Shown here: one piece after another, positions 732-63,687 of the stretch
How positions within the stretch are numbered: position 1 is the stretch's first letter
Layout of the letters: the number at the start of each line of letters is the position of its first letter
Position numbers and translations under genes: made by a program
Notes under the pieces: generated by a model
Told to the model about the DNA's origin: nothing
Database searches by the model: none
What the model saw: only the letters and a program-made list of their open reading frames with translations
Origin: Centroscyllium fabricii
Taxonomy: Eukaryota
DNA: 64,000 nucleotides
Assembly: GCA_051313645.2 (NCBI GenBank)
Contig: JBNRSN020000017.1
Span: 19,902,001-19,966,000, forward strand
Direction: 5' to 3'

Positions 732-758
732 TATAATCCTGAAACTCCCTACCCGACA

Positions 759-4892: not shown

Positions 4893-5087
4893 CCCCAGGG
4901 CTGTCAGCCTCCTGAACTCTAAAAAGAAACTCCGGTACCTGCACGCCTGATAATGTACTCTACTGTATGCATTTTGCATGTAATTTATTTATTTTATTTG
5001 CACTACTCTCGGGAGCGTCGAGTCTTCGTCTCGTTGTATTGTACTAGTACTCTGCAATGACAATAAAACTTGAATTGAATTGAATTG
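4893..5087 (+). mobile_element. 5'-truncated Rex1/Babar-type LINE 3' end
   Basis: Encodes PRAVSLLNS (Rex1-like C-terminus); tail caatgacaataaa...(ttgaa)n; perfect 21-bp TSD agatgccaaggccactcgaga (4872-4892 and 5088-5108). Confidence 0.75.
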
Positions 5088-16263: not shown

Positions 16264-16557
16264 ATTACTTGACAATAGGCACTGCAGTACAACACAGGGA
16301 TTTTGGAATATGGAGTATGCTGTAGTTGAAGTAAAAACCTTCATATATACTAACATATACTATATTAAAGGATGTGTTCTGCAACATTAATACACCAGGA
16401 AGCTTTTAATAGTGCCTTGATATTGGGATCTTTAAATATTAGTGTGTATTACTTAACACGGTCATATTCTAATATTGAAAGAGTCCAATTTCAAGGCACA
16501 GGTTTCTTTACAACATAATGATGCAGTTATCAGCTGTCTGACTAATTACAGAAGACC

Positions 16558-27306: not shown

Positions 27307-27561
27307 ATACACTTTAAATGTTTTGAAAGTTTTAAAAGTAAGCCTTGACCTCTCTGAACTCAAAATGGAAGTGTTTGTGCAGTGGCTCTATAAACAGAAA
27401 GGTCTGGGACACAGGCTGAGTGCATGGATTGTTAGCAACTCTTATGTCGGGAACCGACTCTGGAGTTATACTGTCATTTTTGCAACACTTTGAAGGGGAA
27501 ATCGCTTTGCAGCAACACAAAATTGTCCACATCACTGCACCCTTAATACATGTGCATGGTA

Positions 27562-27850
27562 GTTCCTGGGACTAGGGACAGGGTCACTGGCAAGGCTTGG
27601 AAGCTAAGCAGAGCCAGGCCTGGTTAGTACTTGGATGGGTGACCACCAGGGAATACCAGGTGCAGAAGGTCACGAAAGGAGCCCCGGGGAGGGGCATTTG
27701 GCTGAAGATTGTCGGAATGATGGAAAGATGGAATGGTGGCGCGCACAGACGCAGCGGCTTTGCTGGACTCTTGGGAGCTTGCAAGATCACATTTCGTTGT
27801 TCATGTACTTGTACATTGTATAATGACAATAAAGTTGAATTATTATTATA
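27562..27850 (+). mobile_element. 5S rRNA-derived composite SINE, copy A
   Basis: 27599-27669 matches 5S nt ~47-117 (box A AGCTAAGCAG, box C GTACTTGGATGGG); Rex1-like tail aatgacaataaagttga(att)n. Confidence 0.88.
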
Positions 27851-28889
27851 GCAGGCGGCAGTCTCTCTCAAAATATTTAAATAAGCTTTTCAACTGTCAA
27901 GGAGGTCCAATGAACCACTTGAGCACTAAACTTGGCTTGACAGTGCACTGAAATTATATTCAATATGGGGCCATGCCCAGGCAATGAGAGATGGGTATCC
28001 TAGGGGTTTCATGCTGTTGCACACATGCCAGGTCGGGAACCGACTCTGGAGTTATACTGTCATTTTTGCAACACTTTGAAGGGGAAATCGCTTTGCAACA
28101 ACACAAAATTGTCCGCATCACTGCACCCTTAATACATGTGCATGGTAGTTCTTGTATTGAACCTCTAACCTGAGTAGCAGTATGACCATCTTTATACAAA
28201 GTGTAACAAATTCCCTGTGGAAAGGTTATTAAAAAAGTTGCAAAGGAAGTTAATATATTTTTCATGTACAAAACAGTACTTTTGGAAATCCAATATACAC
28301 AAGCTATCCAAAACAAATTTAGTTATTTTATTCAGTTGGGTTTTTAATTTTCATACCTTATGATGGCTGTGTCATTTTGAAACTATAGCCTTTTCATCAC
28401 AATGAATATTGCAAAATTACATTGCGACTTAGTGGCTGAATCAAAAGATGGATTATAATCAAATAGACACTGACAGAAAGACTTGTCCTATATCATAGGA
28501 CTATAAATGGCATTGCTCTCACGACAGACAGCAGAATTGTTAGTGAAGACAGAGCACAACCTATAAAATCACAATGTTTCGCATTGTTTAAGGATTTATA
28601 TAGCGCTTATTACGTAGTAAAACGTCTCGAGGCGCTTCACAGGAGTATTAAAAGACAAAAAATTAACAGCTCAACAGGGTATTTTGAAGCATACTATCTC
28701 AAGTATTAGCGGCCAATGCAATCTCAGATGTTCCTGGGATCCTTGATTAAAAAAAGTCCTTTTCATAAGATGTTATTTAGTTTCTTTCCTTCCCCCCCCC
28801 CATTTTTCAAAGGCAAATTTGGCCAGTTAATGATAATGATTCCATGTGTTCAAATAAAAGCTTAAAATGCACTAAAATGAAAATATATA

Positions 28890-29367
28890 CAGGTTGAGCA
28901 CCGGTAATCCGGTAACCCAAAAGCCGGCAACTTCAGTCGTCCGGCATAAATCGCCCCGACTGCCCTGCGCATGCGCAATATGGCCGCCACGATTGATGCT
29001 TCGGCGCATGATCTGCGCGTGCGCCACCGAATGCCGAGCGCATGCGCAGATCATTCAAAAAGGGCCGCCGGACGAGCCGGGCCTCCCGTGACGTCAGGGC
29101 GCGGCAGCCGCGCTTTTAATGTGCGGGTCCCGAGCGCCCGCTATGGTGAAGCGCGCGGTTCCCCGGAGCAGCCTACAGGCCGTCATCAGGAGGCACAAAC
29201 CGCAGCGGGGACTCAGCAAGGACGTTCGGCGGCCATTTCCAATGTTGTGCGCATGCGCGCGACCATTTTGAATGGTGCGCGCACTGGCCGGCTTCATTCT
29301 ACCGGTTTTTTCGCTCTACCGGCGTGGGCCTAGTCCCACCCGTGCCGGTAGAACGGGGCTCAACCTG
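28890..29367. mobile_element. Tigger-type MITE, copy 3
   Basis: TA|CAGGTTGAGC...GCTCAACCTG|TA; both ends closely match copy 1. Confidence 0.9.
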
Positions 29368-29620
29368 TATTGATAACTGAAGTATCAGCCGCACAAACGC
29401 AAGTAAATAATAGGCAGCTGCCAAAGACATCTGCCAGTCAAGATGACCACAGAAGTTCCTAAGGGAATGAAATCTCCTACTTTAATGTAGGACTGGGTGG
29501 CAAAATTGGTTAAAGCATGGCGGCCCTTTCAATACTCCATTTGTGTTAGTTTCCAAAGGTAATGTTGTTTGGAGAGCCTAGATGCAAGAACGGAAAAGCC
29601 AAATTAAGAGGGAAAAAAAG

Positions 29621-31552: not shown

Positions 31553-33018
31553 TCTTGTGACAGACTTCTAAATTATACATCAGTTTTTACAGTATACTCT
31601 TAAAAATGAATAATGTGGCCTAAACTAATTTATTTACACTAAGCTGCAAACATAATTTAGTGTTCAATGGAGCGGTGCAGTATGCATGCAATGAAAAGAC
31701 AAACAGCTGCTGGGTAAAAAAAACTTGCCTTCGGTCCGGCAACGTGTGCTCCCACAGCATCATCTCTTGCTCCCTTACTAAATTAGGTGCAATATTAACA
31801 TAGAACACAGGGACCAAAAAACAGCTCATTCATCAGCAGCAATCAGATAACATGCTGTTGGGCAGGCAAATCAGCTGCCCATACTTGGAAATGCTGCCAT
31901 GCACCCAAGAGAACATCAGACCATATTTGTGTACAGGAGAACCCTGGAAATATCTCTCGTGGGAGCATGAGAACTAATAAAGGTTTACTGAAAATAAAAA
32001 TCAAGATAGAAATGAGAGTACTTGTATTTTAAAACTCCGACAAGTATTTGAAGAGAGATAATTGTAAAAGAACTTTAATAGAGCAAAAAAGCATTTAAAA
32101 TGGCTTTTTTTTTTAAAAAATTAAGCACAGCATGGGGTGGCTCTCAGCTTTGAAGACCAAGGCCCCAGATTCACAATCTAGTCTAAGCTAGCTTAGCAGA
32201 CCTCTGCCAAGGCAGCGAAAAGGCTACTGTAATTGTTCCTAGGCTAGGGAGGGGGAAAGAGGGCAGTGTTCCTGGGCTGGGGAGGAGTAAGGGATGAGGT
32301 TGAATGGGAAAAGAAAAAAAGAAAGTCAGGCAGCGATCCGGTTCCTGACTTCCAGACTGTGACCTCTCCTCGAACATTTTAGAGCATGGAATTAGGAGAC
32401 CAGGATTCAACCGTGATGCCTTCCACAAATCAGAACGCTTGCCAACGCCCATCATTTAGCCTCATATATGAAGAATGGTCAATGTTCAAGGTAGAAGAGT
32501 GCTGATGCTCATGTAACTATGGCAATTTTAACCTAACCCGCCCATCGGGAAACAGTGCGAGAAAATGCTTTCAATCATGAATCTATACTAGTAGATCGGC
32601 AAGTTTGATACAGGATAAGACAGAGCTCAAAACAATAGCAATTAGTGTGGAGAAATTGAGCAAGGCATCACCAATGTAGAATTGTCCACTTTGTAAAAAT
32701 TAGTTACCTCAGAAATATTGCAACTTGCCATTTATATGTATGAAACTTATTTTAATGGAAGTAAACAATTAAGGAAAATATTTACATTTCAGGAGCAGTT
32801 TTATGCTGTTCCAATGAACTCAAACTTCTCCAAAAATGTTTCTTGACTAAATTTCTGTTACTTGTCTAATCAAATTCTGTCTGGATTTGCTTAGCATGCT
32901 CTGGTTGCCTAAAACAAGTCAACTGATCCCATGACTCCAGTCACAAGATACATTAATTCACTTCATGCAGCAGCATGGAAATAATCTGTTTATCATACTG
33001 TGGCCACAACATCATCTA

Positions 33019-33404
33019 GGGCGGCACGGTGGCATAGTGGTTAGCACTGTTGCCTTACAGCACTGGAGACCCGGGTTCAAATCCAGCCTCGGGTACTATC
33101 TGTGTGGAGTTTGCACATTCTCCCCGTGTCTGCGTGGGTTTCCTCCGGGTGCTCCGGTTTCCTCCCACAGTCCAAAGATGTGCGGGTTAGGTTGATTGGC
33201 CAGGATAAATTGACCCTTAGTGTTAGGGGGATTGAATATGTGGGGTTACGGGGATAGGGTGGGATATGTGTCGGTGCAGGCTCGATAGGGATATGGGGAG
33301 AGGGCAGGGACGGGTTTTGGTTGATCAGCCATGATCTCATTGAATGGCGGAGCAGGCTCGAAGGGCCGAATGGCCTACTCCTGCTACAATCTTCTATGTT
33401 TCTA
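33019..33404 (+). mobile_element. HE1-like V-SINE
   Basis: Full-length family match. Confidence 0.92.
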
Positions 33405-33494
33405 TATTACTCAGATAGATGTGTCGCCATAAACTCCACCACTCTGGTCTATTCACTTTGAGGTCCTACAAATCTTGTTTAAAGTTTGTTTAAC

Positions 33495-34003
33495 CGTCGG
33501 GACCAGGCCAGTGCCGGACTAGTGAAAAATCGAAACAACTGAAGGCTTGGCGAGTGCATGCGCAGACCATTCAAAAATGGCCGCCGCGCATGCGCAGACC
33601 ATTCAAAAATGGCCGCCGCGCATGCGCAGACCATTCAAAAATGGCCGCCGCGCATGCGCAGACCATTCAAAAATGGCCGCCGCGCATGCGCAGACCATTC
33701 AAAATGGCCACCACGCATGCGCAGACCATTCAAAATGGCCACCACGCATGCGCAGACCATTCAAAATGGCCACCACGCATGCGCAGACCATTCAAAATGG
33801 CCACCACGCATGCGCAGACCATTCAAAATGGCCACCACGCATGCGCAGACCATTTAAAATGGCCACTGCGAATATGCAGACCAGTCATGGAGAGGCCTGC
33901 GCATTGCGAGCGTCCCTGGGATCATGTGGGCCGGCCAGACGGATTCATGCTGGACCACTGAAGTTGCCGGACCATCGGTCCCGGATTAACGGTGCACAAC
34001 CTG
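33495..34003. mobile_element. Tigger-type MITE, copy 4, left end lost, with an internal 10-unit 31/32-bp tandem array (33556-33869)
   Basis: Right TIR GGTGCACAACCTG; units gcatgcgcagaccattcaaaa(a)tggcc(g/a)cc(g/a)c. Confidence 0.85.
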
Positions 34004-34443
34004 CATACCCTATATGAGCAGTCACTTCAAACAAATTTGAAGTATAATTACATCACAAACCAAGCTCAGTTAGAAATGCTGTTAAGGAGATATTTTAATG
34101 CGTCTTTGCAGCATTTAAACTTCAAGACTGAGGAACAACTGACTTAATTGCCAATAAAAGATACTGATCCAATAGCAAAACTAAATGTCATGTCAATGGG
34201 TCAACATTCAGTTTGAAACCCTACAACCCAGGAAAAACACCAGCATCTAAAAACCCTACTTGATATTTCATAGATGCTACATACTGTGTATAATTAGTTA
34301 TGGTTGGACTGTCAGTGGAAAGCACCCAAGGCAGGGCACTTCCCCAGAGTCAGGGAGAATAGATCAAAATCAGCACAAAGCACTCTCGGCACATCCCAGA
34401 GATTGTTATAGAACAGTAATGACCCTCATGATCAGGATAGCTG

Positions 34444-35974
34444 GCAAGATGGCAGCGCGCATAGACGCAGCGGCTTTGCGTCTCCCAAGAAGATGATGTC
34501 CGCTGGACCCCGTACTGGTTCTGAAGTGGACGGCGGGGTCGGCGTGGTAGATCACCGGGATCTTTGTGATCTTTTGATCGGAGCACCGGGGTTGACGCAC
34601 CGAAGACGTCGTGCACAACGCATCGGGGCCGGAGCGTGGCCGGGCGCCGGTAACAACGAGGCCGTCGTGGCCGGAGCCTGCGTAGCCTGAGCATCGGGGC
34701 TGGAGCATCGGGGCCGTCGTGGCCGAGCAGCGGGAGCATCAGGGCCTGCGTGGCCCGAGCGTCGTGGCCGGAGCATCAGGGCCGGGAGCATCGGGCCTGC
34801 GTGGACTAAGCGTCGGGGCCCGGAGCATCGGGACCTGAGCATCGGGCCGTCATGGCCGGAGCTTCGGGGCCGTGAGCTTCGGGGCCGGGAGCTTCGGGGC
34901 CCGGAGCATCGGGGCCTGCGTGGCCTGAGCATCGGGCTGTCATGGTCGGAGCTTCGGGACCGTGAGCTTCGGGGCCATCGTGTCGGGCCTGGGAGCTTCG
35001 CGGCTGTGAGCTTCGAGGCCGTCGTGGCCGGAGCCTGACCTGGGCATCGGGGCCGTCGTGGCCGGAGCGCGGGGGCCATTATGGACCAGACTGGGACTTA
35101 TAGGAGAGGACATTTTAATATCTGTATTGTTTCTTGGGAGATTGCATGTGTGCATTTTGTTGTATTGTGTTTGTTCACTTTACAATGACAATGGCCCAGA
35201 AATTGCAGTGGAGCCTTCGTGCAGGTGCAGTACCTGCTTAACGCACTTGAACTGCCCATATTCAGGTTTGCTTTTTTGCACTCAGGAATTGCAGTTAGCC
35301 CAGCTTGTCAGAGCTCCGTGTGAGCTTCATGGTCATCTGAAGGGCGTAATTAGTGCGAGATGGCTTTTGAGACCACCTGATTGGCAGGGAGCCAATCAGT
35401 GGAGCCAATTCTCTGTTCAAAACTTCCACTGAGAAATCTGTGCAAGTTCTGAAAGGAGAGATTGCCCAAAAGACATCTAAACTCAAAAATAAAATTTTAC
35501 AAACACCACATTTTTTTAACATTACCCCAACTAACACAAATAACCTATTTTAAAGAAAAAATAAAAATTTACAGAAAACTTTTTCAACTTCCAACAGGTC
35601 TAAAAAAATACTTACCTGTCTTTAAAGTTATCAACAATTAAAAACCTGAAAAAACAACAATTAAAATCAATAAAATACACACTTACCAGATAAAAACGGA
35701 TACTCACAACTGCTTTTTCCCAGCAAATATCCGTAGAAAAAGTTTTTTTTTTTTTTTTTTTTATAAATCGGAATGACTGGACGCAACCCTAGTTCACTGC
35801 TTCCTGCGCTAGACCTTGCAGGAACTCCAACCCCCCCGCTAGCCAGCATAGGAAAACCCGAAGCAGCGCAAACGGCTGCTTCCTGCGGGTTTAAGCTCTG
35901 GTGCGCTCGCACCACAGTTTAAACCTGATATGGGCAGACTGCAATTTCTGGCCCATTGAATTGAATTGAATTGA
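34444..35974 (+). mobile_element. Non-coding bipartite Rex1-type retroposon with GC-rich internal repeats
   Basis: Starts gcaagatggcagcgcgcatagacgcagcggctttgc; degenerate gagcatcggggcc repeats at 34620-35070; tail caatgacaat...(ttgaa)n; TSD AGCTG. Confidence 0.7.
35193..35954. mobile_element. Harbinger-type MITE nested in the retroposon tail
   Basis: TIRs GGCCCAGAAATTGCAGT / ACTGCAATTTCTGGCCC. Confidence 0.8.
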
Positions 35975-36659: not shown

Positions 36660-36694
<35 letters not shown>

Positions 36695-36990
36695 TCAACT
36701 TTATTGTCATTGTACAATGTACAAGTACATGAACAACGAAATGTGATCTCGCCATTCCATCTTTCCATCATTCTGACAATCTTCAGCCAACCGCCCCTCC
36801 CCGGGGCTCCTTTCGTGACCTTCTGCACCTGGTATTCCCTGGTAACTGCCCTCTGAAGCGGATTAGCAATCCATTCATTTGCATCAAACCACTTAAGGCG
36901 GCTCACCGCTACCTTCTCCGGGCTACTGGGGTGGGCAATAAATATCAGACATGCCAGCAACGCCCACATCCCCAGAAAGAATTTTTTTTT
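36430..36990 (+). mobile_element. tRNA-headed shark SINE, host of 5S-SINE copy C
   Basis: gagttcaaattcc box B; homologous to 26160-26648. Confidence 0.65.
36661..36843 (-). mobile_element. 5S-derived composite SINE, copy C (5'-truncated, internal deletion)
   Basis: (taa)n tail; reverse match to 51383-51598, lacking ~40 nt. Confidence 0.85.
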
Positions 36991-41065: not shown

Positions 41066-42780
41066 ATCTTGTTGTGCAAGGTCCCTTGGGTCGGAGCGAT
41101 CATAATAAGATAGAATTGTTCATTAAGATGGAGAGTGAAGTAGTTGACCCTGCTAGGGTCCTGAATTTAAATAATGAAAACTACGATAGCATGGATGAAC
41201 TACAGAATTTGTTCATTCCAGTTTGGCATAAAAATAAAACAAAAAAGGTGACTCAACCATGGCTAATTAGGGATAGCATAAGATCCAAGGAGAGGACATA
41301 TAAATTGGCCAGAAAAAGCAGTAAACCTGAGGATTGGCGGAAGTTTAGGATTCAACAAAGGAGGGCAAAGGGATTAATTGATGGGAAATAGAGTATGAGT
41401 GTAAGCTTGCAGGGAACATAAAAACTGACTGCAAAAGTATTTATAGATATGTGAAGAGAAAAACATTGGTGAAGTTAAGCATAGGTCCCTCGCAGTCAGA
41501 ATCAGGGGAATTTATAATGGGGAACAAAGAAATGGCCGATCAATTTTTGGTTCTGTCTTCACAAAGGAGGACACAAACAACCTCCCAGAGTTGTCGGGGA
41601 ATATAGGGTCTAATGAAAGGGAGGAACTGAAAGTAATCAGTAGTTGTAGAGAAATGGTGTTAGGGAAATTGACGGAATTGAAGGCCAATAAATCACCAGG
41701 ACCTGATAATCTACATCCTAGGGTACTTAAGGAAGTGGCCCTAGAAATAGTAGATGCATTGCTGGTCATCTTCCAAAATTCGATAGACTCTGGAACAGTA
41801 CCCATGGATTGGAGGGTAGCTAATGTTACCCCACTGTTCAAAAAAGGTGGCAGAGAGAAAACGGGGAATTACATCGGTAGTGGGGAAAATGCTAGAGTCC
41901 ATTATAAAAGATGTAATAGCAAAGCACTTGGAAAACAGTGACAGGATCGGACAAAGTCAACATGGATTTACAAAGGGTAAATCGTGCTTGACTAATCCAC
42001 TGGAATTTTTTGAGGATGTAACTGGTAAAATAGATAAGGGAGAACCAGTGGATGTGGTGTATTTGGACTTTCAAAAGGCTTTCGATAAGGTCCCACATAA
42101 AAGGTTAGCGTGCAAAGTTAAGGCACATGGGATTGGGGGCAAGGTATTGACTTGGATAGAGAACTGGTTGGCAGACAGGAAGCAAAGAGTTGGAATAAAT
42201 GGGACTTTTTCCGAGTGGCAAGCAGTGACTAGTGGGGTACCGCAGGGATCAGTCCTTGGAACCCAGCTATTCACAATATATATTAATGATCTAGATGAGG
42301 GAACTAGATGTAATATCTCCAAGTTTGCAGACGACACAAAGCTGGGTGGGCATGTGTGCTGTGAGGAGGATACCGAGAAACATCAGTCTGATTCGGACAC
42401 GTTGGGTGATTGGGCAGAAACATGGCAGATGCAATAGAACGTGGATACATGAGAGGTTAACCACTTTGGTGTCAAAAGCAGGAAGGCAGATTACCTGAAT
42501 GGCAATAAATTGGGAGAAGGGGAAGTGCAACGAGACCTGGGTGTCCTTGTGCGCCAGTCGCTGAAGGTAAGCATGCAGGTGCAGCAGGCGGTTAAGGCGG
42601 CAAATGGTATGTTGGCCTTCGTAGCGAGAGGTTTTGAGTACAGGAACAAGGATGTCTTGCTGCAGTTGTACAGGGCCTTGGTGAGACCACACCTTGAGTA
42701 TTGTGTGCAGTTTTTGGTCACCTTATCTCAGGAAGGATGTTCTTGCCATGGAGGGAGTGCAGCGAAGATTCACCAGGCTG
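41066..42780 (+). mobile_element. Degenerate CR1 ORF2 fragment (end of EN, RT), lacking the 3' tail
   Basis: LDFQKAFDKV, GVPQGSVLG and FADDTKL motifs; frameshifts and deletions. Confidence 0.93.
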
Positions 42781-49037: not shown

Positions 49038-52000
49038 CTCAAAGGTAGTAATCTCAGGATGGCTACCAGTGCCACGTGCTAGTCAGAGTAGAAATAGAAG
49101 GTTATTTCAGATGAATAAGTGGCTAGAGGAATGGTGCAAGGTGGAGCGATTCAAATTCCTGGGACATTGGAACCGGTTCTGGGGGAGGTGGGACCAGTAC
49201 AAACAGACAGTTTGCACCTGGGCCGGACTGGGACCGATGTCCTAGGGGAGTGTTTGCTAGTGCTGTGGGGGAGGGTTTAAACTAAAATGGCAGGGGGTTG
49301 GGAACCTGTGCATGGAGACAGGAAAGGGAAACAAGGATAGAAGCAACAGACAGGAAGGAGAAAAGCAAAAGTGGCAGTCAGAGAAATCAAGGGTTTAAAT
49401 CAAATGTGGCCACAGTAAAACATAATTCTAAAAGGTCTAAGAGTGTTAAAAAAAAGCCTGAAAGCGTTTTGTTTTAATGCGAGGAGCATTCGTAATAAGG
49501 TGGATGAATTAACTGCACAAATAGATGTAAATGGATATGATGTGATTGGGATTACGGAAACATGGCTCCAGGGTGACCATGGCTGGGAACTCGACATCCA
49601 GGGGTATTCAATATTCAGGAAAGACAGGCAAAAAGAAAAAGGAGGTGGGGTAGCATTGCTGGTTAAAGAGATTAACACAATAGTAAGGAAGGATGTTAGC
49701 TCTGATGACGTGGAATTTGTATGGGTAGAGCTGAGAAATACGAAGGGGCAGAAAACGTTAGTGGGAGTTGTGTACAGACCCCAAACAGTAATGCTGAGGT
49801 TGGGGATGGCATTAAACAGGAAATTAGAGACGCCTGCAATAAGCGCACAGCAATTATCATGGGTGACTTTAATCTACATATAGATTGGGCTAACCAAATT
49901 AGTAACAATACTGTGATGGAGGAATTCCTAGAGTGTATACGGGGTGGTTTCTGGACCAATATGTTGAGGAACCAACTAGAGATCAGGCCATTTTAGACTG
50001 GGTATTATGCAATGAGAAAGGATTAATTAGCAATCTTGTTGTGCGAGGCCCCTTAGGGCAGAGCGATCATAATATGATCGAATTCTTCATTCAGATGGAG
50101 AGTGAAGTATTTGACTCAGAGACCAGGGTCCTGAATTTAAATAAAGGAAACTACAATGGTATGAAGTGCGACTTGGGTAGGATTGATTGGGGAATGTCAC
50201 TCAAAGGGTTGACGGTGGATAGGCAATGGCAAACATTTAAAGATCACATGGATGAACTACAGAATTTGTTCATCCCTGTTTGGCATAAAAATAAAACAAA
50301 AAAGGTGAATCAACTGTGGCTAACAAGGGAAATTAGGGATAGCATAAGATCCAAGGAGAGGATATATAAATTGGCCAGAAAAAGCAGCAAACCTGAGGAT
50401 TAGGAGCAGTTTAGGATTCAGCAAAGGAGGACAAAGGGATTAATTAAGAGGGGGAAAATAGAGTATGAGAGTAAGCTTTCAGGGAACATAAAAACTGACT
50501 GTAAAAGCTTCTATAGATATGTAAAGAGAAAAAAATTGGTGAAGTAAAGCATAGGTCCCTTGCAGTCAGAATCAGGGGAATTTATAATGGGGAACAAAGA
50601 AATGGCAGACCAATTAAATACATACTTTGGTTCTGTCTTCACAAAGGAGGACACAAATAACTTCCCAGAGATGTCGGGGAACATAGGGTCTAATGAGAGG
50701 GAGGAAATGAAAGAAATCAGTATTTGTAGGGAAATGGTGTTATGGAAATTGACGGGATTGAAGGCCGATAAATCGCCAGGGCTGATAATCTACATCCTAG
50801 GGTACTTAAGGAAGTGGCCCGAGAAATAGTAGATGCATGGTTGGTCAGCTTCCAAAATTCTATAGACTCTGGAACAGTTCCCATGGATTGGAGGGTAGCT
50901 AATGTTACCCCACCATTCAAAAAGGGTGGTAGAGAGAAAACGGGGAATTATAGACCGGTAAGCCTAACATCGGTAGTGGGGAAAATGCTAGAGTCCATTA
51001 TAAAAGATATAATAGCAAAGCACTTGGAAAACAGTGACAGGATCAGACAAAGTCAACATGGATTTACAAAATGTAAATCGTGCTTGACTAATCTACTGGA
51101 ATTTTTTGAGATGTAACTGGTAAAATAGATAAGGGAGAACCAGTGGATGTGGTGTATTTGGACTATCAGAAGGCTTTCGATAAGGTCCTGCATAAGAGAT
51201 TAACGTGTAAAGTTAAGGCACATGGGATTGGGGGCAAGGTACTGGACTTGGATAGAGAACTGGTTGGCAGACAGGAAGCAAAGAGTTGGAATAACTCTGT
51301 TCCTGGGACTAGGGACAGGGTCACTGGCTAAGCTTTGGAAGCTAAGCAGAGCCAGGCCTGGTTAGTACTTGGATGGGTGACCACCAGGGAATACCAGGTG
51401 CAGAAGGTCACGAAAGGAGCCCCGGGGAGGGGCGGTTGGCTGAAGATTGTCGGAATGATGGAAAGATGGAATGGCGGCGTGCACAGACGCAGCTGCTTTG
51501 CTGGACTCTTGGAGGCTTGGAAGATCACATTTCGTTGTTCATGTACTTGTACATTGTATAATGACAATAAAGTTGAATTATTATTATTATTATTATTAAA
51601 CGGGTCTTTTTCCGAGTGGCAGGCAGTGACTAGTGGGGTACTGCAGGGATTGGTCCTTGGACCCCAGCTATTCAAAATATATATTAATGATCTAGACGAG
51701 GGAACTAGATGTAATATCTCCATGTTTGCAGATGACACAAAGCTGGGTGGGCGTGTGTGTTGTGAGGAGGATGCCGAGAAACTCCAGTATGATTTGGACA
51801 GGTTGGGTGATTGGGCAGAAGCATGGCAGATGCAATATAATGTGGATAAATGCGAGGTTATCCACTTTGGTGGCAAAAACAGGAAGGCAGATTATTATCT
51901 GAACGGCAATAGATTGGGAGAAGGGGAAGTGCAGCAACGCGATCTGGGTGTCCTTGTGCACCAGTCGCTGAAGGTAAGCATGCAGGTGCAGCAGGCGGTG

Positions 52001-52660
52001 AAGAAGGCAAATGGTATGTTGGCCTTCATAGCGAGAGAGCTCGAGTACAAGAACAAGGATGTCCTGCTGCAGTTGTACAGGGCCTTTCTGAGACCACATG
52101 TTGAGTATTGTGTGCAGTTTTGGTCACCTTATCTGAGGAAGGATGTTCTTGCCATGGAGGGAGTGCAGCGAAGATTCACCAGGCTGATACCTGGGATAGC
52201 AGGAATGATGTATGAGGAGAAATTGGATCGATTGGGCTTATACTCGCTGGAGTTTAGAAGAATGAGAGGGGATCTCATTGAAACTTATAAAATTCTAACA
52301 GGACTAGACAGACGAGATGCAGGAAGGATGTTCCCGATGGTCAGGAAGTCCAAGACCAGGGCTCACAGGCTAACGATAAGCGGTAAGCCATTTAGAACAG
52401 AGATGAGGAGGAATTTCTTCACCCAGAGAGTGGTGAACCTGTGGAATTCTTTACCACAGAAGGTAGTTGAGGCCAATTCATTAAATATATTCAAGAAGGA
52501 GTTAGATATATTTCTTAAGGCTAAAGGGATCGAGGGATATGGAGAGAAAGCAGGGACAGGGTACTGAATTTGGATGATCAGCTATGATCTCATTGAATGG
52601 CGGAGCAGGCTCGAGGGGCCGAATGGCCTACTCCTGCTCCTATCTGCTATGCTTCTATGT
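49038..52660 (+). mobile_element. Long degenerate CR1/HER1 LINE (ORF1 esterase end, APE endonuclease, RT, 3' tail)
   Basis: NARSIRNK, GITETWL, MGDFN, SDHN and FADDTKL motifs; several stops and frameshifts; interrupted by a 5S-SINE. Confidence 0.95.
51295..51598 (+). mobile_element. 5S-derived composite SINE, copy B (most complete)
   Basis: Inserted between CR1 ggaataa and acggg; 5S segment 51337-51407; (att)n tail. Confidence 0.9.
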
Positions 52661-54342: not shown

Positions 54343-54751
54343 GGGCGGCATGGTGGCATAGTGGTTAGCACTGTTGCCTCACAGAGCATGGGGCCCGGGT
54401 TCAAATCCAGCCTCGGGTACTATCTGTGTGGAGTTTGCATATTCTCCCTGTGTCTGCGTGGGTTTCCTCCGGGTGCTCCGGTTTCCTCCCACAGTCCAAA
54501 GATGTGCGGGTTAGGTTGATTGGCCAGGATAAATTGACCCTTAGTGTTAGGGGGATTGAATATGTGGGGTTACGGGGATAGGATGGGATATGTATCGGTG
54601 CAGGCTCGATAGGGATCGAGGGATATGGGGACAAGGCAGGGACAGGGTACTGGGTTTGGATGATCAGCCATGATCCCATTGAATGGCGGAGCAGGCTCGA
54701 GGGGCCAAATGGCCGACTCCTGCTCCTATCTTCTATGTTTCTATGTTTCTA
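54343..54751 (+). mobile_element. HE1-like V-SINE
   Basis: Full-length family match. Confidence 0.92.
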
Positions 54752-55747
54752 CCCATTACCGTCAGTCAGAGCTCATATGCCAAGTTAGATGTAGTAGTTC
54801 AGTAATTTGCCAAATTGATACAGAGTACAGGTACTAGTTATTCCCAACTATTATTAAACGGAATTCATCAAGTATGTGCTAACAAACATTTAGAATAATG
54901 ACTGTGGCAGCTTTGGGAAGACAAATGGCATTGGGCAACTTTCAGACATTGGAACCACACATTTGATACAAAAACAGGCCTCTTATTTAAAAGAAGCTGA
55001 TGTTGTGTTGGCCGACAAAGTGCTGATGATCAGAAGTTGATAATGCCACACTATTTGTCTGAATTTTCTGTGGCTTTTATATTGAGCTCTACCCACAGTT
55101 ACAATGGACTACATAACTTTATAACAAAGAACTTTGAAGTATTTTGAACAACTGTAAAATTCAGAATTATCACATTTGAACCAGATCATTGGTGTCTATT
55201 ATTCTAATTTTTCATGTGCATTACAGTCCAGTATCTATCAGTCATCGAGTTACCCAGATTCTCCCTTTACAATGCATGGCTATGAAAAAGTATGCACATA
55301 AACAAGTTTCAGTGTCAAATATTGGGCAGAAATCTACCCATCTTAGTTTCAGGGTGTGAAAGAGATAGTATTGCTTATCTCAGGCATCTACCTTCTTGGA
55401 AAAAAGACACATTACTCTCTTCCTTGTCCAATTTTCTTCGCTTGCCAGAACTCCTTTCTGCTTCCTGGGGCTACCATGGAGAAGCAGGTGGCCTCCCTCA
55501 GCACCTGCCCACCACATTGGGGCCAAGATTGAAAACTCAGCTGCTAAATAGTAAATCAGACTTTTGGATCACCACTCCGAGGTGGCTCATGTTAATGTTC
55601 TAACATGCTGCATCACAGCTCCAGGCAGATTCTGCGTAATAATTATAATTTGCATTCGATAGGCAATAACTTCATGCAAATGAATGCTAATTAATCTGGC
55701 TGACTATTAAAGCATCATTCACACTACAAGGTCAGTTACTTAAGATG

Positions 55748-55943
55748 CAAAAAGTCACACAACACCAGATTTATAGTCCAACGGTTTTATTTTAAATCAC
55801 AAGCTTTCGGAGCTTTTGCCCGACGAAGGGGCAAAAGCTCCGAAAGCTTGTGATTTAAAATAAAACCGTTGGACTATAAATCTGGTGTTGTGTGACTTTT
55901 TGCATTTGTCCACCCCAGTCCAACACCGGCACCTCCACATTAT
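55748..55943. mobile_element. Fold-back Penelope pseudo-LTR pair
   Basis: ~77-bp perfect inverted arms around gacgaa; 14-bp TSD agttacttaagatg. Confidence 0.88.
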
Positions 55944-56100
55944 AGTTACTTAAGATGGTACTGGAGCTCAGAGGGAAGGGAAATTGTGTTTGCAATTCCC
56001 CACATAATGAACACCAGGCCTCCATCAAACTGTGTGCGTATGTGAAATGATTCCCTGGATGGAAGGAAAGGGAGGCTGAGACTGTACAGATGTGCTTTAC

Positions 56101-57316: not shown

Positions 57317-60099
57317 TAAGTGTGAAATTTGACCCATAACTCAAAGAAAAAATTGGCATGTGATATTAATAACGAAGAATACTTTTTCTGCACTCATTTT
57401 TTAATGTCTGGCCTTCATCCATCTCGAACAGATTACAAACTGAAGTGTGAAGCACTTTAAAGCCTCATGGATCGAAATTTTGGCTCAAAGGCCTTCCACA
57501 GTTTCTTCACCTTGATTTTATTGGGTGACAAAAACTGGGAACTATGGGATGTCTCAGTTTGCCCAGCAGCTTGCTTGAAAGCCAAATTCAATTCAGACGG
57601 TCCTCTATAAAACTACCATTTCTTCTCCCCCAACAGCCACCCCCACCCCGAGGGACTTTGCTTCTCATTTTTGAGGTCTTTGATCCGCCACAGGGGCAGT
57701 TACACTATATTGGCTCCTGGTGATGAATGTTGTTTACTGTTGTTCTGTACATTTAGCAAACATTAGCACAAAACAAGCAATACCAGCATTCTTAATGTGC
57801 TGTACATGTTACATGTAGGAATAACACTTGCAGTCAGGAGTATGACGGGAATGGTATTTCCTAAAATCACAAAATTGACCAGTTGTCCTCCATTACAATG
57901 CATTTGTTCAAATTCCCCCATACAAAAAAACTGTATCTTTAAAAATTTACTTAGAAATGTTATTGACCCAACATAAATTACGATATTAGCCATTAAAGCT
58001 GGTTTGTTATTGGTTTTCTAGAGTCCAATTTACTGGTTTCACTTTAGGATTTGATTTTCTTCTAAAAAGGTGTTAGTTTTCAAATGAAAAGTAGCACAGA
58101 AAAAAAACACCTTGGAGGAAGGAAGTATTGATTTGTGGCAAAAATGGTAAAGACAAATGGCAAAGTAAGCAAGAACCAGAACTGCCAGAAAAGGGGGAAA
58201 CCAACAGACTTGAGTATTGTTAGGATTTTAGGATTTTAAAAATCCAGAAAACTTTTTAAAATACCCTCTGCTACTGCTCAAGACATTCTTCTGTTTCATA
58301 ACATGACCAAAAGCAAACTAACCTAATTGACTCTAGGTTTGATTCTGCAGCTGCTTAGGGACCAAACTGCTTAAAAAATAACTCGCTGATGTACAACGTC
58401 TGATCTTAGAATGGAAATGAGTTGATTAACATTGACCCCACCCCCACCCAGTGCTGCTCGTTTTACTGACTAAGATGCACCCTAACCACAACAAAGTGGA
58501 CAATTAATGCATCAATATTCTCCATTGTATTTGGTCCTAGCCTTTCCCTGTACTGCCACAAGCAGGGCCATGGAAGATGAGACAAGTATAAGGCAGCCAT
58601 TCCTTATTAAATATGGCAAGCATGTACTGCATGTGTGTTCATGGAGGAGAGATATTGCAGCGCCCATCAACCAACCAGGTGCCACAAAACTGCTATCCCT
58701 ATGCCAACTCCTGATTTGCACAGTGCCACCTGTGGTATGTCAGGACACCCATCTAAAGTGGTATGGCTAAAAAAAACAATGAAACACATCAGATATTCTG
58801 GGAAGGAGAATAAATCATTTGCCTTCAGCGAATCTCAAACCTACTGCATTTCAATAGTAGTACGAGGCAAATACTTCATCCCTGCTGCTCCCTTTAAATT
58901 GTGTCTTCAAGAAGAGATAAGCTGCATTTGAAATGTTATGCCCTTGAGATTATAACATGCTCCGTGAAATAGGACCTGAATACCATCACCAGTTTTCTGT
59001 TGCTGACAGTCATGATTACTCATCTATCATTTCAGTGCTGCTGTGGCATCTTTCTGCTGCCCGCCCACTGCACAACAGCAAGAAAGGCAGGCACCAACTG
59101 GCTTCTTCCGGAGAACCGGCACCTACAGGGAATTCAAGCCTGAATCTACGACAGCACAAATTTGACTGTACAACCCCCCCAATGCTTTTCTTTCATGCAT
59201 TTTGTTATGGAAATTGTGACAGCTTTGAATTCCTTGTAACAAGTTAAGCCAGCAGCAAGCTGATAATGTGACGATCCAAGTTTCGGTTGTACAGCTGACA
59301 TTTATGATGGCTGCATCCTTTTATAACGACAGGTTAATCAGAAAGCTCAAAGCCGGTTCTGCAGTCGGGGAAATGCATTCTACAAAGTGTGAAATAAGAT
59401 CCCAGGTTGGAGGGTGCAGAAACCACCCACTGCAGATCTGACGGGATAAAGTCTCGAAACCAGATCACCACCGATTCTAATTGCAGTAAACATCTTTCAT
59501 CCAATGTTGATGCTGCAGAGTTCACACACCACATAACGTGGAACAGAGCCAAAGTATGTGATAGGGTGGGGAGGGGGAGTATGGGCAGCATCAATGTAAA
59601 ACATTTTTGGGCAATCTTGAAAGAGTCCCTTAAGGCAACCCCTGGAGATCATATCTTCACGACAAAATGATTGCCTGCTGATAATTAAATTAACTCAAAG
59701 ATCAAGCTTGTAGGTATACAGTATTGGGTATATTGATTTTACTCAACAATAAATTCTTTAGCAGTTGATAAAAAATTAAATGGCCTACAACTGTACAAAA
59801 TACAAGTTAGCCACCAAAGTCATAAGCTGAGGAGCAAAGATCCCAAACTAGTTGGAAAATGTTAGTAGCTATTTAGATGGACTGATTGCTATAAGTCTCC
59901 AAGATAATCTAACATATTTTAAAAAACATTTCACACTGTAAAACTGACGTTTATTATTTTTAAATCACACAGGATAAACATAATATTATGCACACACACA
60001 CATTGACCTGACACGTCATCCTGGATCATAACACAGCTTGTGCAAAATTAGTGAACTCTACTGAATAAGCAGAGGGCAGCAATTCTCTTGCACTAACTG

Positions 60100-60626
60100 C
60101 ACACTGGGTCCGCAGCGCACACTGGGTCCGCAGTGCACACTGGGTCCGCAGCGCACACTGATGCCGCAGCGCACACTGATGCCGCAGCGCACTGATGCCG
60201 CAGCGCACACTGATGCCGCAGCGCACACTGATGCCGCAGCGCACACTGATGCCGCAGCGCACACTGATGCCGCAGCGCACACTGATGCCGCAGCGCACAC
60301 TGATGCCGCAGCGCACACTGATTCCGCAGCGCACACTGATGCCGCAGCGCACACTGATGCCGCAGCGCACACTGATTCCGCAGCGCACACTGATTCCGCA
60401 GCGCACACTGATTCCGCAGCGCACACTGATTTCGCAGCGCACACTGATTTCGCAGCGCACACTGATTTCGCAGCGCACACTGATTGCGCACACTGATTTC
60501 GCAGCGCACACTGATGCCGCAGCGCACACTGATTCCGCAGCGCACACTGATTCCGCAGCGCACACTGATTCCGCAGCGCACACTGATTGCGCACACTGAT
60601 TCCACAGCACACACTGATTCCACAGC
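60100..60626. repeat. 18-bp minisatellite (~29 units) in intron 1
   Basis: Unit gcagcgcacactgatgcc with variants gggtcc, gattcc and gatttc. Confidence 0.97.
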
Positions 60627-61209
60627 GTGGCCTTTGAAGGGACTGCGAATTTTCCAGAGCCTTCCATTGTAAATGAACTTTCTCTGGTACTGAGCTGCTA
60701 CAGATTAATAAAAATGCAAACTTTCATCAGAAAGGAGTGAACTACTTTTCACACACAAAAAAAACACATGCATGGGAACCTTTTATGCAGAGAAAAGCAA
60801 ATTCCTTTGCAATTAAACATCCAAAAGGCATTCGATACCCCATGGTATCACCAACAAAAGGTGAAAAGACCTTATAGATGTGTGCAAGGAACTAGAGGCA
60901 GTATTTCAGGTTAGGGCTCCGATGATTAGCAAACTGCACAAGCTTTGCTTTCGTATCTCATGACATCAGCTGGAGTCCACGCCTCAGACGCACTGCCTTG
61001 TTGGAATCCTCCCCCACCCAGCCAGCAGCTCCCATTCCTACACAGTGAACATTTATACTCCCAAGAATTGTCTAAAAGAGCAATTTTCAACTAAACATTT
61101 GCCAGTTTGGAAGGGGCAAAACAAAAACAAAAAAGTTTAAATACACTTGATCTTGCTCAACAGCACACGTGATTTAAAAAACAAAAATAAGGCAGGTTCC
61201 TTTAGATTT

Positions 61210-61358
61210 ATGATGATGTGGAGTTTGGACTGGGGTGGACAAATGTAAGAAGTCACACAAACACCAGGTTAGAGTCCCAACAGCTTTCCCCAAAGCTTGT
61301 GATTTCAAATAAAGCTGTCGGGACCTATAACCTGGTGTTGTGTGTGTTGACTTCTTAC
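61210..61358. mobile_element. Older inverted Penelope family A fragment
   Basis: gtaagaagtcacacaaacaccaggtt...aacctggtgttgtg...gacttcttac. Confidence 0.7.
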
Positions 61359-61737
61359 CTTTTAAGATTCAGTACAATTAAAGGATGAACACCACCAGTG
61401 CAAAAAGCCAGCAGGGCTGTCTGGAAACTTCTAAAAAAATAAATGTGAAGCAGAGACTAAAAAACTTTTTTTTTAAAAACACAACCTAGAAATCTGCATT
61501 ATTAGTATGTGGAGCATTATTAGTATGTGGAGCATTATTAGTAGGTGGAGGCATAGTTGTGAATCAATCAAAGAAAAGTCTCCAGTAAGTGGACACTGAC
61601 TGGGATTTTCAACAACAACAAAAAAGAGGAAAAAAAGTTAAGAAGTTAATGGTTGGCGTTAGATTCTAATACAATACATATATATATCTATATAATGTTG
61701 GAAGGTAGCCGGTGCCAACACTGGGACACTCACTCAC

Positions 61738-61785: not shown

Positions 61786-62760
61786 GGTCTTCTCGGCGCA
61801 GATCACAAATGCAATCTCAAACTTACTCCACGGCGCCAATAAAAAGGCTCGCTCGCCCCCTGAAACTTTTTTTTTCTCTCACTTTCTCTCTCTCTCTCTT
61901 TGACAGTAATTCCCACCCACACACACACAGCGAGAGAGAACTTCGGCGCTTCTCCCACTTCAAAACGCCGACTCCAGCGCCCGTCGCCTAGGAACGCGGC
62001 TGAGGAGGACTCCCCGCTTTCGCTTGACAACCCAACCTGACGGCTGGGGCTGGGTTTGTGCGGCGGGGATTGGCCCGGGCTGGCGGAGTCCCCGCGTGGC
62101 CATTGGCCAATCTCAACGTCAATCACTCGTTAGTGCCCCCGCCCCCTCCCTTATGCGGCGGTGATTGGCCCGGGCTGGCGGAGTCCCCGCGCGGCCATTG
62201 GCTAATCCCAACGTCAATCACTTGTTAGTGCCCCCGCCCCCACTCTGCGGCGGGGATTGGCCCGGGCTGGCGGAGTCCCCGCGCAGCCATTGGTCAATCC
62301 CAACGTCAATCACTCGTTAGTGCCCCCGCCCCCCCCTATGCGGCGGTGATTGGCCCGGGCTGGCGGAGTCCCCGCGCGGCCATTGGCTAATCCCAACGTC
62401 AATCACTCGTTAGTGCCCTCGCCCCCTCCCCATGCGGCGGGGATTGGCCCGGGCTGGCGGAGTCCCCGCGCGGCCATTGGTCAATCTCAACGTCAATCAC
62501 TCGTTAGTGCCCACGCCCCCCCACCCCTATGCGGCGAGGATTGGCCCGGGCTGGCGGAGTCCCCATGCGGCCATTGGCCAATCCCAACGTCAATCACTCG
62601 TTAGTGCCCCCGCCCTCCCTCCCCTATGCGGCGGGGATTGGCCCGGGGCTGGCGGAGTCCCCGCGCGGCCATTGGTCAATCACAACGTCAATCATTCATT
62701 AGTGCCCCGCCCCCTCCAGTCGCGCTAGGTTGCCTCGGCACGGACTGACGTCACGGCCAC
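61740..62760 (-). promoter_or_regulatory. BAIAP2: CpG-island promoter and 5' UTR of BAIAP2
   Basis: CpG-dense and GC-rich, directly upstream of the ATG. Contains many ATTGG/CCAAT and CCCCGCCCC motifs, a full CRE TGACGTCA at 62746-62753 and an RFX X-box-like GTCGCCTAGGAAC at ~61983-61995. Confidence 0.8.
62059..62716. repeat. Promoter tandem array, 7 copies of a ~93-bp unit
   Basis: Unit tgcggcggggATTGGcccgggctggcggagtccccgcgcggccATTGGtcaatcccaACGTCAatcactcgttagtgCCCCCGCCCCtccct repeated 7 times. Confidence 0.95.
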
Positions 62761-63583
62761 CCTCTCCAGGGGACCTGGCCAGCAGATTTTGTTGCAGTGA
62801 AGATCAAAGAGGGATTTATTTAAAAAATATGCGTCTATACCTTAAAAGAAACGTAATTCACTTCCATAGCAACCAGTTAATAACGTGTTAGAAATCCCCT
62901 TTGCATTGTGCGGCATATACGTAATATTGGCAGCTCAGCTGGGATTTTTTTTCCATGCTCGTCATTATGCTGCAGTTTTTTTGGAAGCAGCCACTGAACG
63001 TTCATTGTAAAAGGGTAATTATTGCAAATTAATCCAATGTGAGCTCATCTGGTGGGCACGGTGAATCATTCTCAACCAGCGTTTGCTCAGATGCTCAGGG
63101 ATGACTTAGCCGAGCCTACTTTACATTAACACTGTTCCAAACTAATCACCATAAATGAGTTGCTGCCAGGGCTTCAGCCACAAAACCTTGCGCAGTTTGC
63201 AGCACTCTCTCCGAATCGTGATGTATAGCTTGCTGCTGCTGCAAATTTATACAAGGGTTTCCCCCCCTACTGTGAGTTACTCTTGTTTCCCTGAATGCAA
63301 GAGTCTAGACATTTATCCCATTCCATGGCTCCCTCTTGAAGGAGACTCCCCTGGTTTTTTTGGTGACAAAATATGCACAATCATCCGGACTAGGGACATT
63401 TTTGTCTTGTAAGGAAATTCCCTTTTTTTAAATCATTCTGTGTGTTTTGCAGCATTTGACCCCCCTTGCGACTGTGCCTCATTGCTCGCAGACTGAGGTG
63501 TTAAAATATGTTAATATGCCTTTGTGTCTCTAGGGTGAGATGTGGAAGAGATCGGATTTCTCCCTTCCTCCGATATGTGATCT

Positions 63584-63687
63584 TTAAGTCAGTCTCTGTC
63601 CACCTGACAAAGGGGCAGAAGCTCCGAAAGCTTGTGATTTAAAATAAAACCATTGGACTATAATCTGGTGTTGTGTGACTTCTTGCA
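63584..63687 (+). mobile_element. Penelope family A fragment with a mutated hammerhead (CUGACAA)
   Basis: Matches 16122-16225. Confidence 0.8.

What the first reader, a model, noticed from the sequence alone, without database searches (positions are those of the whole stretch)
51295..51598. Composite 5S-headed SINE family: foreign leader, 5S internal promoter and a bipartite Rex1-type body
Seen: three copies (27562-27850, 36661-36843, 51295-51598) of a ~300-bp element. Only 5S nt ~47-117 are kept (box A, IE, box C), and the first ~46 nt of 5S are replaced by an unrelated leader of at least 42 nt, which roughly preserves the spacing to box A. The body contains atggYggcgYgcacagacgcagcKgctttgc and a cttgg...cattt(c)gttg...aatgacaataaa tail. 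Both motifs recur at the two ends of the element at 34444-35974, and the tail motif recurs in the Rex1-like 3' end at 4893-5087. Known: described 5S-derived SINEs (SINE3, AmnSINE1) use CR1/L2-type tails. Inference: a TFIIIA-driven SINE mobilised by a Rex1/Babar LINE, built by fusing a 5S promoter to a LINE 5'/3' bipartite derivative. It is younger than the CR1 and SINE it sits in.
Basis: partly seen in the sequence, partly recalled or inferred. Interest (0 to 1): 0.75.

Follow-up and report, generated by a model that had tools for sequence, protein, structure and literature searches.

The report
5S-headed SINE built from Rex1 ends
A 300-base repeat in a cartilaginous-fish genome joins part of a 5S rRNA gene to the first ~30 and last ~80 bases of a Rex1 retrotransposon; it is likely a SINE copied by Rex1 enzymes, a known design so far described with other retrotransposon groups.

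Summary
The element is real. Two near-full copies (27562-27849, 51295-51596) differ at 10 of 278 positions. The third (36661-36843, minus strand) is 5'-truncated and also lacks 45 nt of the body. Order of parts: ~40-nt non-5S leader, 5S nt ~44-117, ~55-nt spacer of unknown origin, Rex1 5' end, Rex1 3' end, (ATT)n. The 5' motif is the first ten codons of the Rex1 ORF and opens named Rex1 consensus sequences, including skate and ray ones. The tail matches the 3' end of a full-length Rex1-type LINE (58/77). The two pieces meet in a 5-nt microhomology. A second, head-less bipartite Rex1 derivative lies at 34444-35974. Much of the design is known: 5S head plus bipartite RTE (CoeSINE5, Ped-1, SINE-1_Pmo, HaSE3), and 5S heads that diverge upstream of box A. 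New in what I could search: Rex1 as the donor; a 2018 Repbase survey found only RTE and Vingi in SINE middles. Not shown: genome copy number, Pol III transcription, the partner LINE in this genome, absence from Repbase/Dfam. Verdict: new variant of a known kind, interest 0.5.

The parts
51295..51596 (+). Most complete copy of the SINE (copy 3), inserted in a CR1 RT frame; 3-bp target duplication TAA at 51292-51294 and 51597-51599
   Evidence: empty paralogue 42154-42239
51295..51333 (+). Non-5S leader; 51295-51320 is an imperfect inverted repeat predicted to fold as an 11-bp hairpin with a 4-nt loop
   Evidence: (-14.7 kcal/mol; 16 of 1000 shuffles as stable)
51334..51407 (+). 5S rRNA-derived part, nt ~44-117, spanning the internal control region (box A, IE, box C; box positions recalled); the 5S terminator is absent
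   Evidence: (RF00001 37.0 bits), (no run of 4 T in any copy)
51408..51462 (+). Spacer of unknown origin, present in all three copies; no Rfam match, no other match in the window
51463..51501 (+). Rex1 5' terminus: AAGATGG, then the first ten codons of the Rex1 ORF from 51471 (reads MAACTDAAAL here, MVARTDAAAL in copy 1)
51497..51577 (+). Rex1 3' end with a predicted 7-bp stem; TTTGC at 51497-51501 belongs to both the 5' and the 3' piece (microhomology at the junction)
51578..51596 (+). (ATT)n microsatellite end (7 units here, 3 in copy 1, 11 in copy 2)
27562..27849 (+). Copy 1, near full length; its first 4 nt also match a nearby duplicated flank
36661..36843 (-). Copy 2: 5'-truncated, 45-nt internal gap, inserted in another repeat; possible 3-bp duplication TTA overlapping the tail
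34444..35974 (+). Head-less bipartite Rex1 derivative: Rex1 5' end (34445 on; reads MAARIDAAALRLPRR then stop), GC-rich tandem middle (34581-35077), Rex1 tail (35126-35192), (TTGAA)n end; 5-bp duplication AGCTG; 35193-35954 is a separate nested element
4893..5087 (+). 5'-truncated Rex1 3' end: last codons PRAVSLLNS, 3' UTR, tail, (TTGAA)n; 21-bp repeat on both sides
   Evidence: peptide exact in 3 of 120 Rex1-type proteins

Best explanation
This is a repeat family made of a 5S rRNA promoter region joined to the two ends of a Rex1 LINE, and it is likely a SINE3-type element that RNA polymerase III would transcribe and Rex1 proteins would copy. Steps: (1, shown) three related copies, two of them nested in older repeats, with microsatellite ends and at most 3-bp target duplications. 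(2, shown) The body is the Rex1 5' terminus joined to the Rex1 3' end through a shared TTTGC. (3, inferred) A Rex1 lost its whole interior by a microhomology-guided deletion or template switch, and this ~110-nt remnant came to lie behind a 5S fragment. (4, inferred) TFIIIA/TFIIIC bind the retained internal control region and set the start about 45 nt upstream, so the leader can be any sequence of the right length; the RNA runs through the body because no T4 run is left. (5, inferred) The Rex1 endonuclease/reverse transcriptase recognises the 3' stem-loop and primes reverse transcription at A/T sites that pair with the (AUU)n end. The Rex1 5' piece is likely a passenger or a helper, not strictly needed.
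For: 5' motif: in the supplement of PMC13343379, all 12 places with AAGATGGCGGCG and all 5 with GACGCAGCGGCT are in rows named Rex1, at or next to their start, including skate rows (LeuEri_Rex1-1, -2, -12); a ray row (HypSab_Rex1-5) opens with the shorter form; SolSen_Rex1-1 differs from copy 1 at 2 of 27 bases by eye. MAARTDAAA occurs in the first 100 residues of 5 of 120 listed Rex1-type proteins, MAAR.DAAA in 21 of 120, 16 of them at residue 1. The looser pattern occurs 3 times in the six frames of the window, only in these elements. Tail: a pattern scan gave 18 loci; in 10 of the 16 with enough upstream DNA the unsearched part of the tail also matched (at most 2 of 200 shuffles). L019 is a full-length LINE with one 994-aa ORF, carries both ends, and matches the SINE tail at 58/77 and the 5' end of 34444 at 35/48 (0 of 300 shuffles). 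L009 carries RVT_1 + PF09004. Both hold the peptides encoded by the published Rex1 primers 572 and 575 bp apart, against 573-575 bp published. Stem: 7 pairs, 101 of 101 cells paired in 15 sequences, 2 pairs with two-sided changes. Family status: 17 runs in 9 studies hold 0.27-0.95 of the sampled words of copy 1 plus flanks; the 13 rows outside the best-matching organism hold 0.27-0.46, close to the element's 0.49 share of the query, 12 of them in contig sets of only 37-407 Mb.
Against: The SINE's 5' motif alone does not match L019 better than chance (18 of 300 shuffles); the link runs through named Rex1 consensus ends and other proteins. The primers match L019/L009 poorly as DNA (6-8 of 21 and 11 of 24 mismatches), so these are other Rex1 lineages. 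No autonomous Rex1 from this genome was seen; the SINE ends in (ATT)n whereas the Rex1 ends seen end in (TTGAA)n or (AATCT)n, and the window's own Rex1 tails match less well (53/74, 46/62) than the teleost-like ones. Tail hairpins are not more stable than shuffles as single sequences (z -0.9 to +1.0), the 3' strand of the stem was fixed by the search pattern, and the sequences are related. The tail motif was not found in the Rex1 supplement (0 places), where cells are cut at 400 characters. Copy 2 lacks most of the 5' piece. The 0-of-120 CR1 control is weak, as those proteins are short fragments. No RNA evidence.
Confidence: 0.8

Rival explanations
1. The copies are truncated members of a longer element whose true head (for example a tRNA part) lies upstream, so the 'leader' is an internal piece.
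For: Only two 5' ends are known; the leader hairpin could stall reverse transcription at the same place; copy 1 joins its flank by 4-nt microhomology, typical of truncation.
Against: The two 5' ends lie 4 nt apart and within ~10 nt of where a 5S-type promoter would start; the empty CR1 site fixes the start of copy 3 at 51295.
Confidence: 0.1
2. These are a few chimeric retrocopies (5S fragment plus Rex1 ends) or local duplicates, not a self-propagating SINE family.
For: Only three copies seen, all in 64 kb; copy 1 sits in locally duplicated DNA; a SINE-specific 24-mer had 0 hits in metagenome contigs, a collection with little shark DNA expected.
Against: Copies share leader, spacer and junctions but have unrelated flanks, different strands and different tail lengths; many runs with other organism labels hold about the element's share of words.
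Confidence: 0.05
3. The element is moved by a LINE of another clade (L2, CR1, RTE/RTEX) and the Rex1 likeness is a relic.
For: Microsatellite differs from the Rex1 ends seen; CR1-group elements are very abundant in sharks and rays; no host partner shown.
Against: The terminal 80 nt are Rex1 3' UTR up to the microsatellite; the other LINE 3' end in the window (11340-11445) matches only 24/34.
Confidence: 0.04
4. It is a TRIM-like LTR element with a 5S promoter (Cassandra/Ajax type).
For: Ajax also keeps only box A, IE and box C.
Against: No terminal repeats, variable microsatellite end, LINE tail, 5'-truncated copy.
Confidence: 0.01

Closest known systems
CoeSINE5 (coelacanth), SINE-1_Pmo (python), HaSE3 (moth), Ped-1 (springhare): 5S head + bipartite RTE (PMC5786205; PMC3747384)
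   Same: 5S-derived head with a partly replaced 5' end; short body made of a LINE 5' piece and a LINE 3' end; microsatellite end.
   Different: Donor LINE is Rex1, not RTE; the 5' piece is the extreme 5' terminus with the start codon, not an inner 5'-UTR piece; more of the 5S 5' part (about 43 nt) is replaced; an extra ~55-nt spacer.
OS-SINE1 (salmonids): 5S head, Deu domain, RSg-1 tail (PMC3747384, PMC3272025)
   Same: 5S head in a fish; ~70-bp LINE tail. I recall RSg-1 as possibly Rex1-related, but could not confirm its clade.
   Different: OS-SINE1 is listed as a DeuSINE; here there is no room for a 330-bp Deu domain; no LINE 5' piece is described for it in what I read.
SINE2-5_NV (sea anemone), paired with Rex1-24_NV (PMC3747384 table)
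   Same: A SINE with a Rex1 tail, so Rex1-mobilised SINEs are known.
   Different: tRNA head; not among the bipartite SINEs tabulated in PMC5786205.
Zebrafish SINE3-1 / AmnSINE1
   Same: 5S internal promoter head.
   Different: Deu domain and CR1/L2-type tail there; none here.
Bipartite non-autonomous LINEs (RIME, Bov-A, RTESINE, WALLSI3)
   Same: 5' and 3' ends of one LINE with the interior lost; applies to the SINE body and to 34444-35974.
   Different: PMC5786205 lists only RTE, Ingi, Vingi and R2 as sources; this is Rex1.

Membership tests
SINE (SINEBase definition, PMC3531059) | short (<1 kb), interspersed, not tandem | tested here: met
SINE (SINEBase definition, PMC3531059) | [quoted passage not shown] | tested here: inconclusive
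   3 copies in 64 kb; one search suggests a high-copy repeat; no genome held, no read depth obtained
SINE (SINEBase definition, PMC3531059) | at least 60% identity to tRNA, 5S or 7SL over at least 60 nt | tested here: met
   Rfam 5S model 53-120 aligned over 68 nt; about 40/47 by eye to the 5S reference over nt 44-89
SINE (SINEBase definition, PMC3531059) | not an RNA pseudogene: extra body shared by the copies | tested here: met
SINE3 class (5S-derived SINEs) | retained box A, IE and box C; no internal Pol III terminator | tested here: met
   alignment covers the region (box positions recalled); longest T run is 3
SINE3 class (5S-derived SINEs) | transcribed by RNA polymerase III from the internal promoter | not testable with these tools
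   no raw RNA reads among the runs found
SINE3-1 / AmnSINE1 / OS-SINE1 (DeuSINEs) | Deu central domain | tested here: inconclusive
   no Deu reference to align; the only unassigned part is ~55 nt against 330 bp in vertebrate DeuSINEs, so a full domain is excluded
SINE3-1 / AmnSINE1 | CR1/L2-type tail | tested here: not met
   tail is a Rex1 3' end
Bipartite LINE-derived SINEs (PMC5786205) | a piece of a LINE 5' region in the body | tested here: met
Bipartite LINE-derived SINEs (PMC5786205) | 3' end of a LINE of the same clade | tested here: met
   L019 carries both ends
Bipartite LINE-derived SINEs (PMC5786205) | donor clade RTE or Vingi, as in all cases listed there | tested here: not met
   donor is Rex1; the Rex3 primer peptide QGCPLS is not in L019 or among the 81 such motifs of the 120 proteins
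Rex1 (as donor LINE) | 5' terminus of named Rex1 consensus sequences | tested here: met
Rex1 (as donor LINE) | single ORF with endonuclease and RT, no ORF1; conserved 3' UTR plus oligonucleotide repeat | tested here: met
   L019, L009; definition
Rex1 (as donor LINE) | RT phylogeny places the donor in the Rex1 clade | not tested
   no named Rex1 RT sequence was on hand in full; assignment rests on 5' ends, primer peptides and spacing
Rex1 (as donor LINE) | a contemporary autonomous partner in the same genome | not testable with these tools
   no genome held; tblastn of the window shows only CR1-level matches and the SINE codons (output cut at 5000 characters)
Cassandra / Ajax TRIM | two LTRs around an internal part | tested here: not met

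The most novel reading that the evidence does not exclude
Rex1 is a fifth LINE clade that spawns bipartite parasites, and its first ~30 nt, conserved from teleosts to skates and kept in two independent derivatives in this window, are a cis-acting RNA signal used in integration, as the 5' RNA is in R2. Bipartite derivatives would then be a general mark of LINEs that lack ORF1 (RTE, Ingi, Vingi, R2, Rex1), whose single protein must hold both RNA ends.
Probability: 0.3. Interest if true: 0.7.

Novelty: new variant of a known kind. Interest (0 to 1): 0.5.

Why it matters
A Repbase-wide survey (PMC5786205) found that only RTE and Vingi gave SINEs their middle parts, and that only four clades gave bipartite non-autonomous LINEs; it left open whether this was sampling bias or mechanism. 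A Rex1 case, seen twice in one window, argues for a wider rule, and Rex1 shares with those clades the lack of ORF1 (PMC13343379 for Rex1; the others recalled). The SINE cuts the Rex1 cis-elements down to about 30 + 80 nt, which makes them easy to test in a cell assay. As a young family that appears to be shared by several species, it may also give insertion markers for cartilaginous fishes and may cross-react with 5S rDNA probes.

Tried and rejected
SINE-specific 24-mer in metagenome contigs: 0 hits. Rex1 5' motif patterns in genome and viral contigs: 0 hits. Tail pattern in viral contigs: 1 hit, a chance match. Of 18 loci were dropped for too little upstream DNA (L008, L017) and 6 did not match beyond the pattern (L003, L004, L005, L007, L011, L014; L004, L005, L014 look like chance bacterial hits). 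DNA-level primer matching did not identify Rex1. The four rows with shares of 0.04-0.07 are not used. The LINE end at 10313-11448 was rejected as partner (24/34; no Pfam hit). Leader and spacer have no other significant match in the window (best E 0.09). Earlier findings of the scan: none. Literature: ten searches showed no paper on a 5S/Rex1 bipartite SINE or a shark 5S SINE; Repbase, Dfam and SINEBase could not be searched, the SINEBase supplement was not held, and one review was not held. The clade of RSg-1 could not be settled.

Full report
Setting. The window comes from a cartilaginous fish: the closest named relatives of the CR1 frame at 51599-52564 are from Mobula, Hypanus, Leucoraja and Callorhinchus (69-77% identity among the best named hits).

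Observation. Self-BLAST finds three copies. Copies 1 (27562-27849) and 3 (51295-51596) differ at 10 of 278 columns; copy 2 (36661-36843, minus strand) differs from copy 3 at 2 of 150 columns but is 5'-truncated and has a 45-nt gap. Copy 3 splits a CR1 reverse-transcriptase frame; the empty paralogue at 42154-42239 fixes its ends and shows a 3-bp duplication TAA. The CR1 host differs from its paralogue at 48 of 578 columns on the right and 18 of 377 on the left. Copy 2 splits another repeat, with at most a TTA duplication that overlaps its own tail. The copies end in 3, 7 and 11 ATT units.

Head. Rfam's 5S model hits copies 3 and 1 at 37.0 and 31.8 bits (gathering score 38); the alignment is good for model positions 53-120, skips 27 positions before them and is poor at the 5' end. 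By eye against the 5S reference in the supplement of PMC5786205, about 40 of 47 columns agree over nt 44-89 and 3 of 26 over nt 18-43. So the first ~43 nt of 5S are replaced. The two 5' ends fall at about +5 and +10 of a colinear 5S numbering. The first 26 nt of copy 3 are predicted to form an 11-bp hairpin (16 of 1000 shuffles as stable); its role is unknown. No copy has a run of four T. A spacer of ~55 nt follows, with no match in Rfam or elsewhere in the window.

Body, 3' part. A 25-letter tail pattern found 1 locus in genome contigs and 17 in metagenome contigs. In 10 of the 16 with enough upstream DNA, the 57 nt of SINE tail outside the pattern also matched (at most 2 of 200 shuffles). 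L009 has a 734-aa frame with RVT_1 and PF09004 upstream of the tail. L019 holds a whole LINE: one ORF of 994 aa starting a few bases from its 5' end, whose relatives are fish endonuclease/RT proteins. The SINE tail matches L019 at 58/77, L009, L002 and L013 at 44/51, the window's Rex1-like ends at 53/74 and 46/62, and the unrelated LINE end at 11340-11445 at only 24/34. A 7-bp stem is paired in 101 of 101 cells of 15 tails, with two-sided changes in 2 pairs and 3 of 500 shuffles reaching the score. This is suggestive only: the 3' strand was fixed by the search, the sequences are related, and single-sequence folds are not better than shuffles.

Body, 5' part. The motif reads MVARTDAAAL, MAACTDAAAL and MAARIDAAAL in copy 1, copy 3 and the element at 34449, the only three such places in six frames. 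Among the 120 listed of 428 relatives of the L019 ORF, 5 have MAARTDAAA and 21 have MAAR.DAAA in their first 100 residues, 16 at residue 1. In the consensus table of PMC13343379 (cells cut at 400 characters), all 12 places with AAGATGGCGGCG and all 5 with GACGCAGCGGCT are in rows named Rex1, among them skate rows, and a ray Rex1 opens with the shorter form; the shorter GACGCAGC also occurs in L2 and CR1 rows (5 of 13 places). AldAff_Rex1-15 opens much as L019 does (by eye). L019 and L009 encode FSSAFNT and RLFFLR at the spacing of the published Rex1 amplicon (572 and 575 bp against 573-575), though the primers match poorly as DNA. Against this: the SINE's 5' motif alone is not a significant match to L019 (18 of 300 shuffles), while the 5' end of 34444 is (0 of 300). 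The five bases TTTGC end the 5' piece (as in 34444) and open the conserved Rex1 3' block (as at 4998 and in L003, L006, L009, L019): a microhomology at the junction.

A second derivative. 34444-35974, flanked by AGCTG, has the Rex1 5' end, a non-coding GC-rich tandem middle and the Rex1 tail; a ~760-bp inverted-repeat element sits in its tail. It is a head-less bipartite Rex1 derivative, seen once. It is not the SINE's direct parent (46/62 in the tail).

Spread. Of 21 runs listed for copy 1 plus flanks, 4 from one organism label hold 0.52-0.95 of the words, 13 from five other organism labels, three unlabelled rows and a fish gut metagenome (8 further studies) hold 0.27-0.46, and 4 hold under 0.1 and are not used. 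The element is 0.49 of the query, and 12 of the 13 contig sets are only 37-407 Mb, where single-copy flanks of a large genome would seldom assemble.

Mechanism. Shown: the parts and their order, nesting, junction. Inferred: an internally deleted Rex1 came behind a 5S fragment; the internal control region sets a Pol III start at the leader; Rex1 protein binds the 3' stem and primes at A/T targets that pair with the (AUU)n end. That 5S promoters act from inside the gene and that LINE proteins recognise SINE tails is established; PMC3272025 notes that 5S-type promoters lean on upstream signals, so many copies may be silent. Whether the 5' piece does anything is open: copy 2 lacks most of it, but the gap may be later than the insertion.

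Comparison. Works like: CoeSINE5, SINE-1_Pmo, HaSE3, Ped-1 (5S + RTE pieces). Member of: the SINE3 class by head (copy number and transcription untested), but not of SINE3-1/AmnSINE1 and not of any RTE-type family. Rex1-tailed SINEs are known (SINE2-5_NV), and OS-SINE1 may be one if RSg-1 is Rex1 (recalled, unconfirmed). PMC5786205 states that only RTE and Vingi contributed to SINE middles and only RTE, Ingi, Vingi and R2 gave bipartite LINEs; 'Rex1' does not occur in its supplement. Ten searches found no description of this family, but Repbase, Dfam and SINEBase were out of reach and may hold it.

What I saw of each paper. PMC5786205: outline, parts 1-3 of 5 of the main text, supplement passages. 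PMC7245038: parts 1-2 of 4. PMC13343379: passages and supplement rows (first 400 characters). Passages only: PMC3747384, PMC10946416, PMC10886601, PMC5499810, PMC3531059 (supplement not held; its SINE table could bear on novelty), PMC6274825, PMC3728117, PMC4824008, PMC3272025. PMC3472496: term search, no hits. Recalled, from no call: positions of box A, IE and box C; R2 binding both RNA ends; lack of ORF1 in RTE, Ingi, Vingi and R2; the names HE1, SacSINE1 and RTEX for repeats in this window.

Verdict. A real, young SINE-like family; new variant of a known kind. Interest 0.5.

Noticed in passing
window 27330-27565 (left of copy 1), 25833-25949, 28032-28151: The 235 bp upstream of copy 1 are two local duplicates: one of DNA 1.5 kb upstream (6/117 differences) and one of DNA 0.5 kb downstream (2/120), the latter joined to the SINE by a 4-nt microhomology. 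Possibly a templated insertion made during integration.
   Followed up: partly
window 35193-35954: About 760-bp element with 17-bp inverted ends (1 mismatch) and AT on both sides, nested in the Rex1 tail; likely a non-autonomous DNA transposon.
   Followed up: partly
window 10313-11448: 3' end of another LINE: 285-aa frame with a cysteine/histidine motif, no Pfam hit, tail ending in (TTGAA)n; RTEX-like by recall.
   Followed up: partly
window 41066-42780 and about 49400-52660: Two long CR1 copies about 90% alike, the second reaching back into the endonuclease region.
   Followed up: partly
window 1680-2094, 13605-13991, 16558-16967, 33015-33415, 54343-54751 and fragments: A ~410-bp repeat with many copies at 91-95% identity that shares its 3' end with the CR1s (HE1-like by recall).
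   Followed up: no
window 343-734, 22708-23241, 28886-29370, 33498-34007: GC-rich palindromic repeats with GCGCATGCGC units, one as a ~30-bp tandem array.
   Followed up: no
window 7774-7902, 15990-16265, 55736-55946, 61225-61362, 63573-63687; 24351-24450: Palindromic short repeats (MITE-like) that give spurious microRNA hits in Rfam.
   Followed up: no
window 60099-60627 and 62056-62717: Two tandem arrays (about 18-bp and 95-bp periods).
   Followed up: no
L002 (contig of a Flavobacterium MAG), 3626-3724: Carries a fish-type Rex1 3' end, so the contig is likely host contamination.
   Followed up: partly
L019 1294-4275 (minus strand): Full-length Rex1-type LINE with an open 994-aa frame whose start codon lies a few bases from the 5' end; no clear target duplication.
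   Followed up: yes
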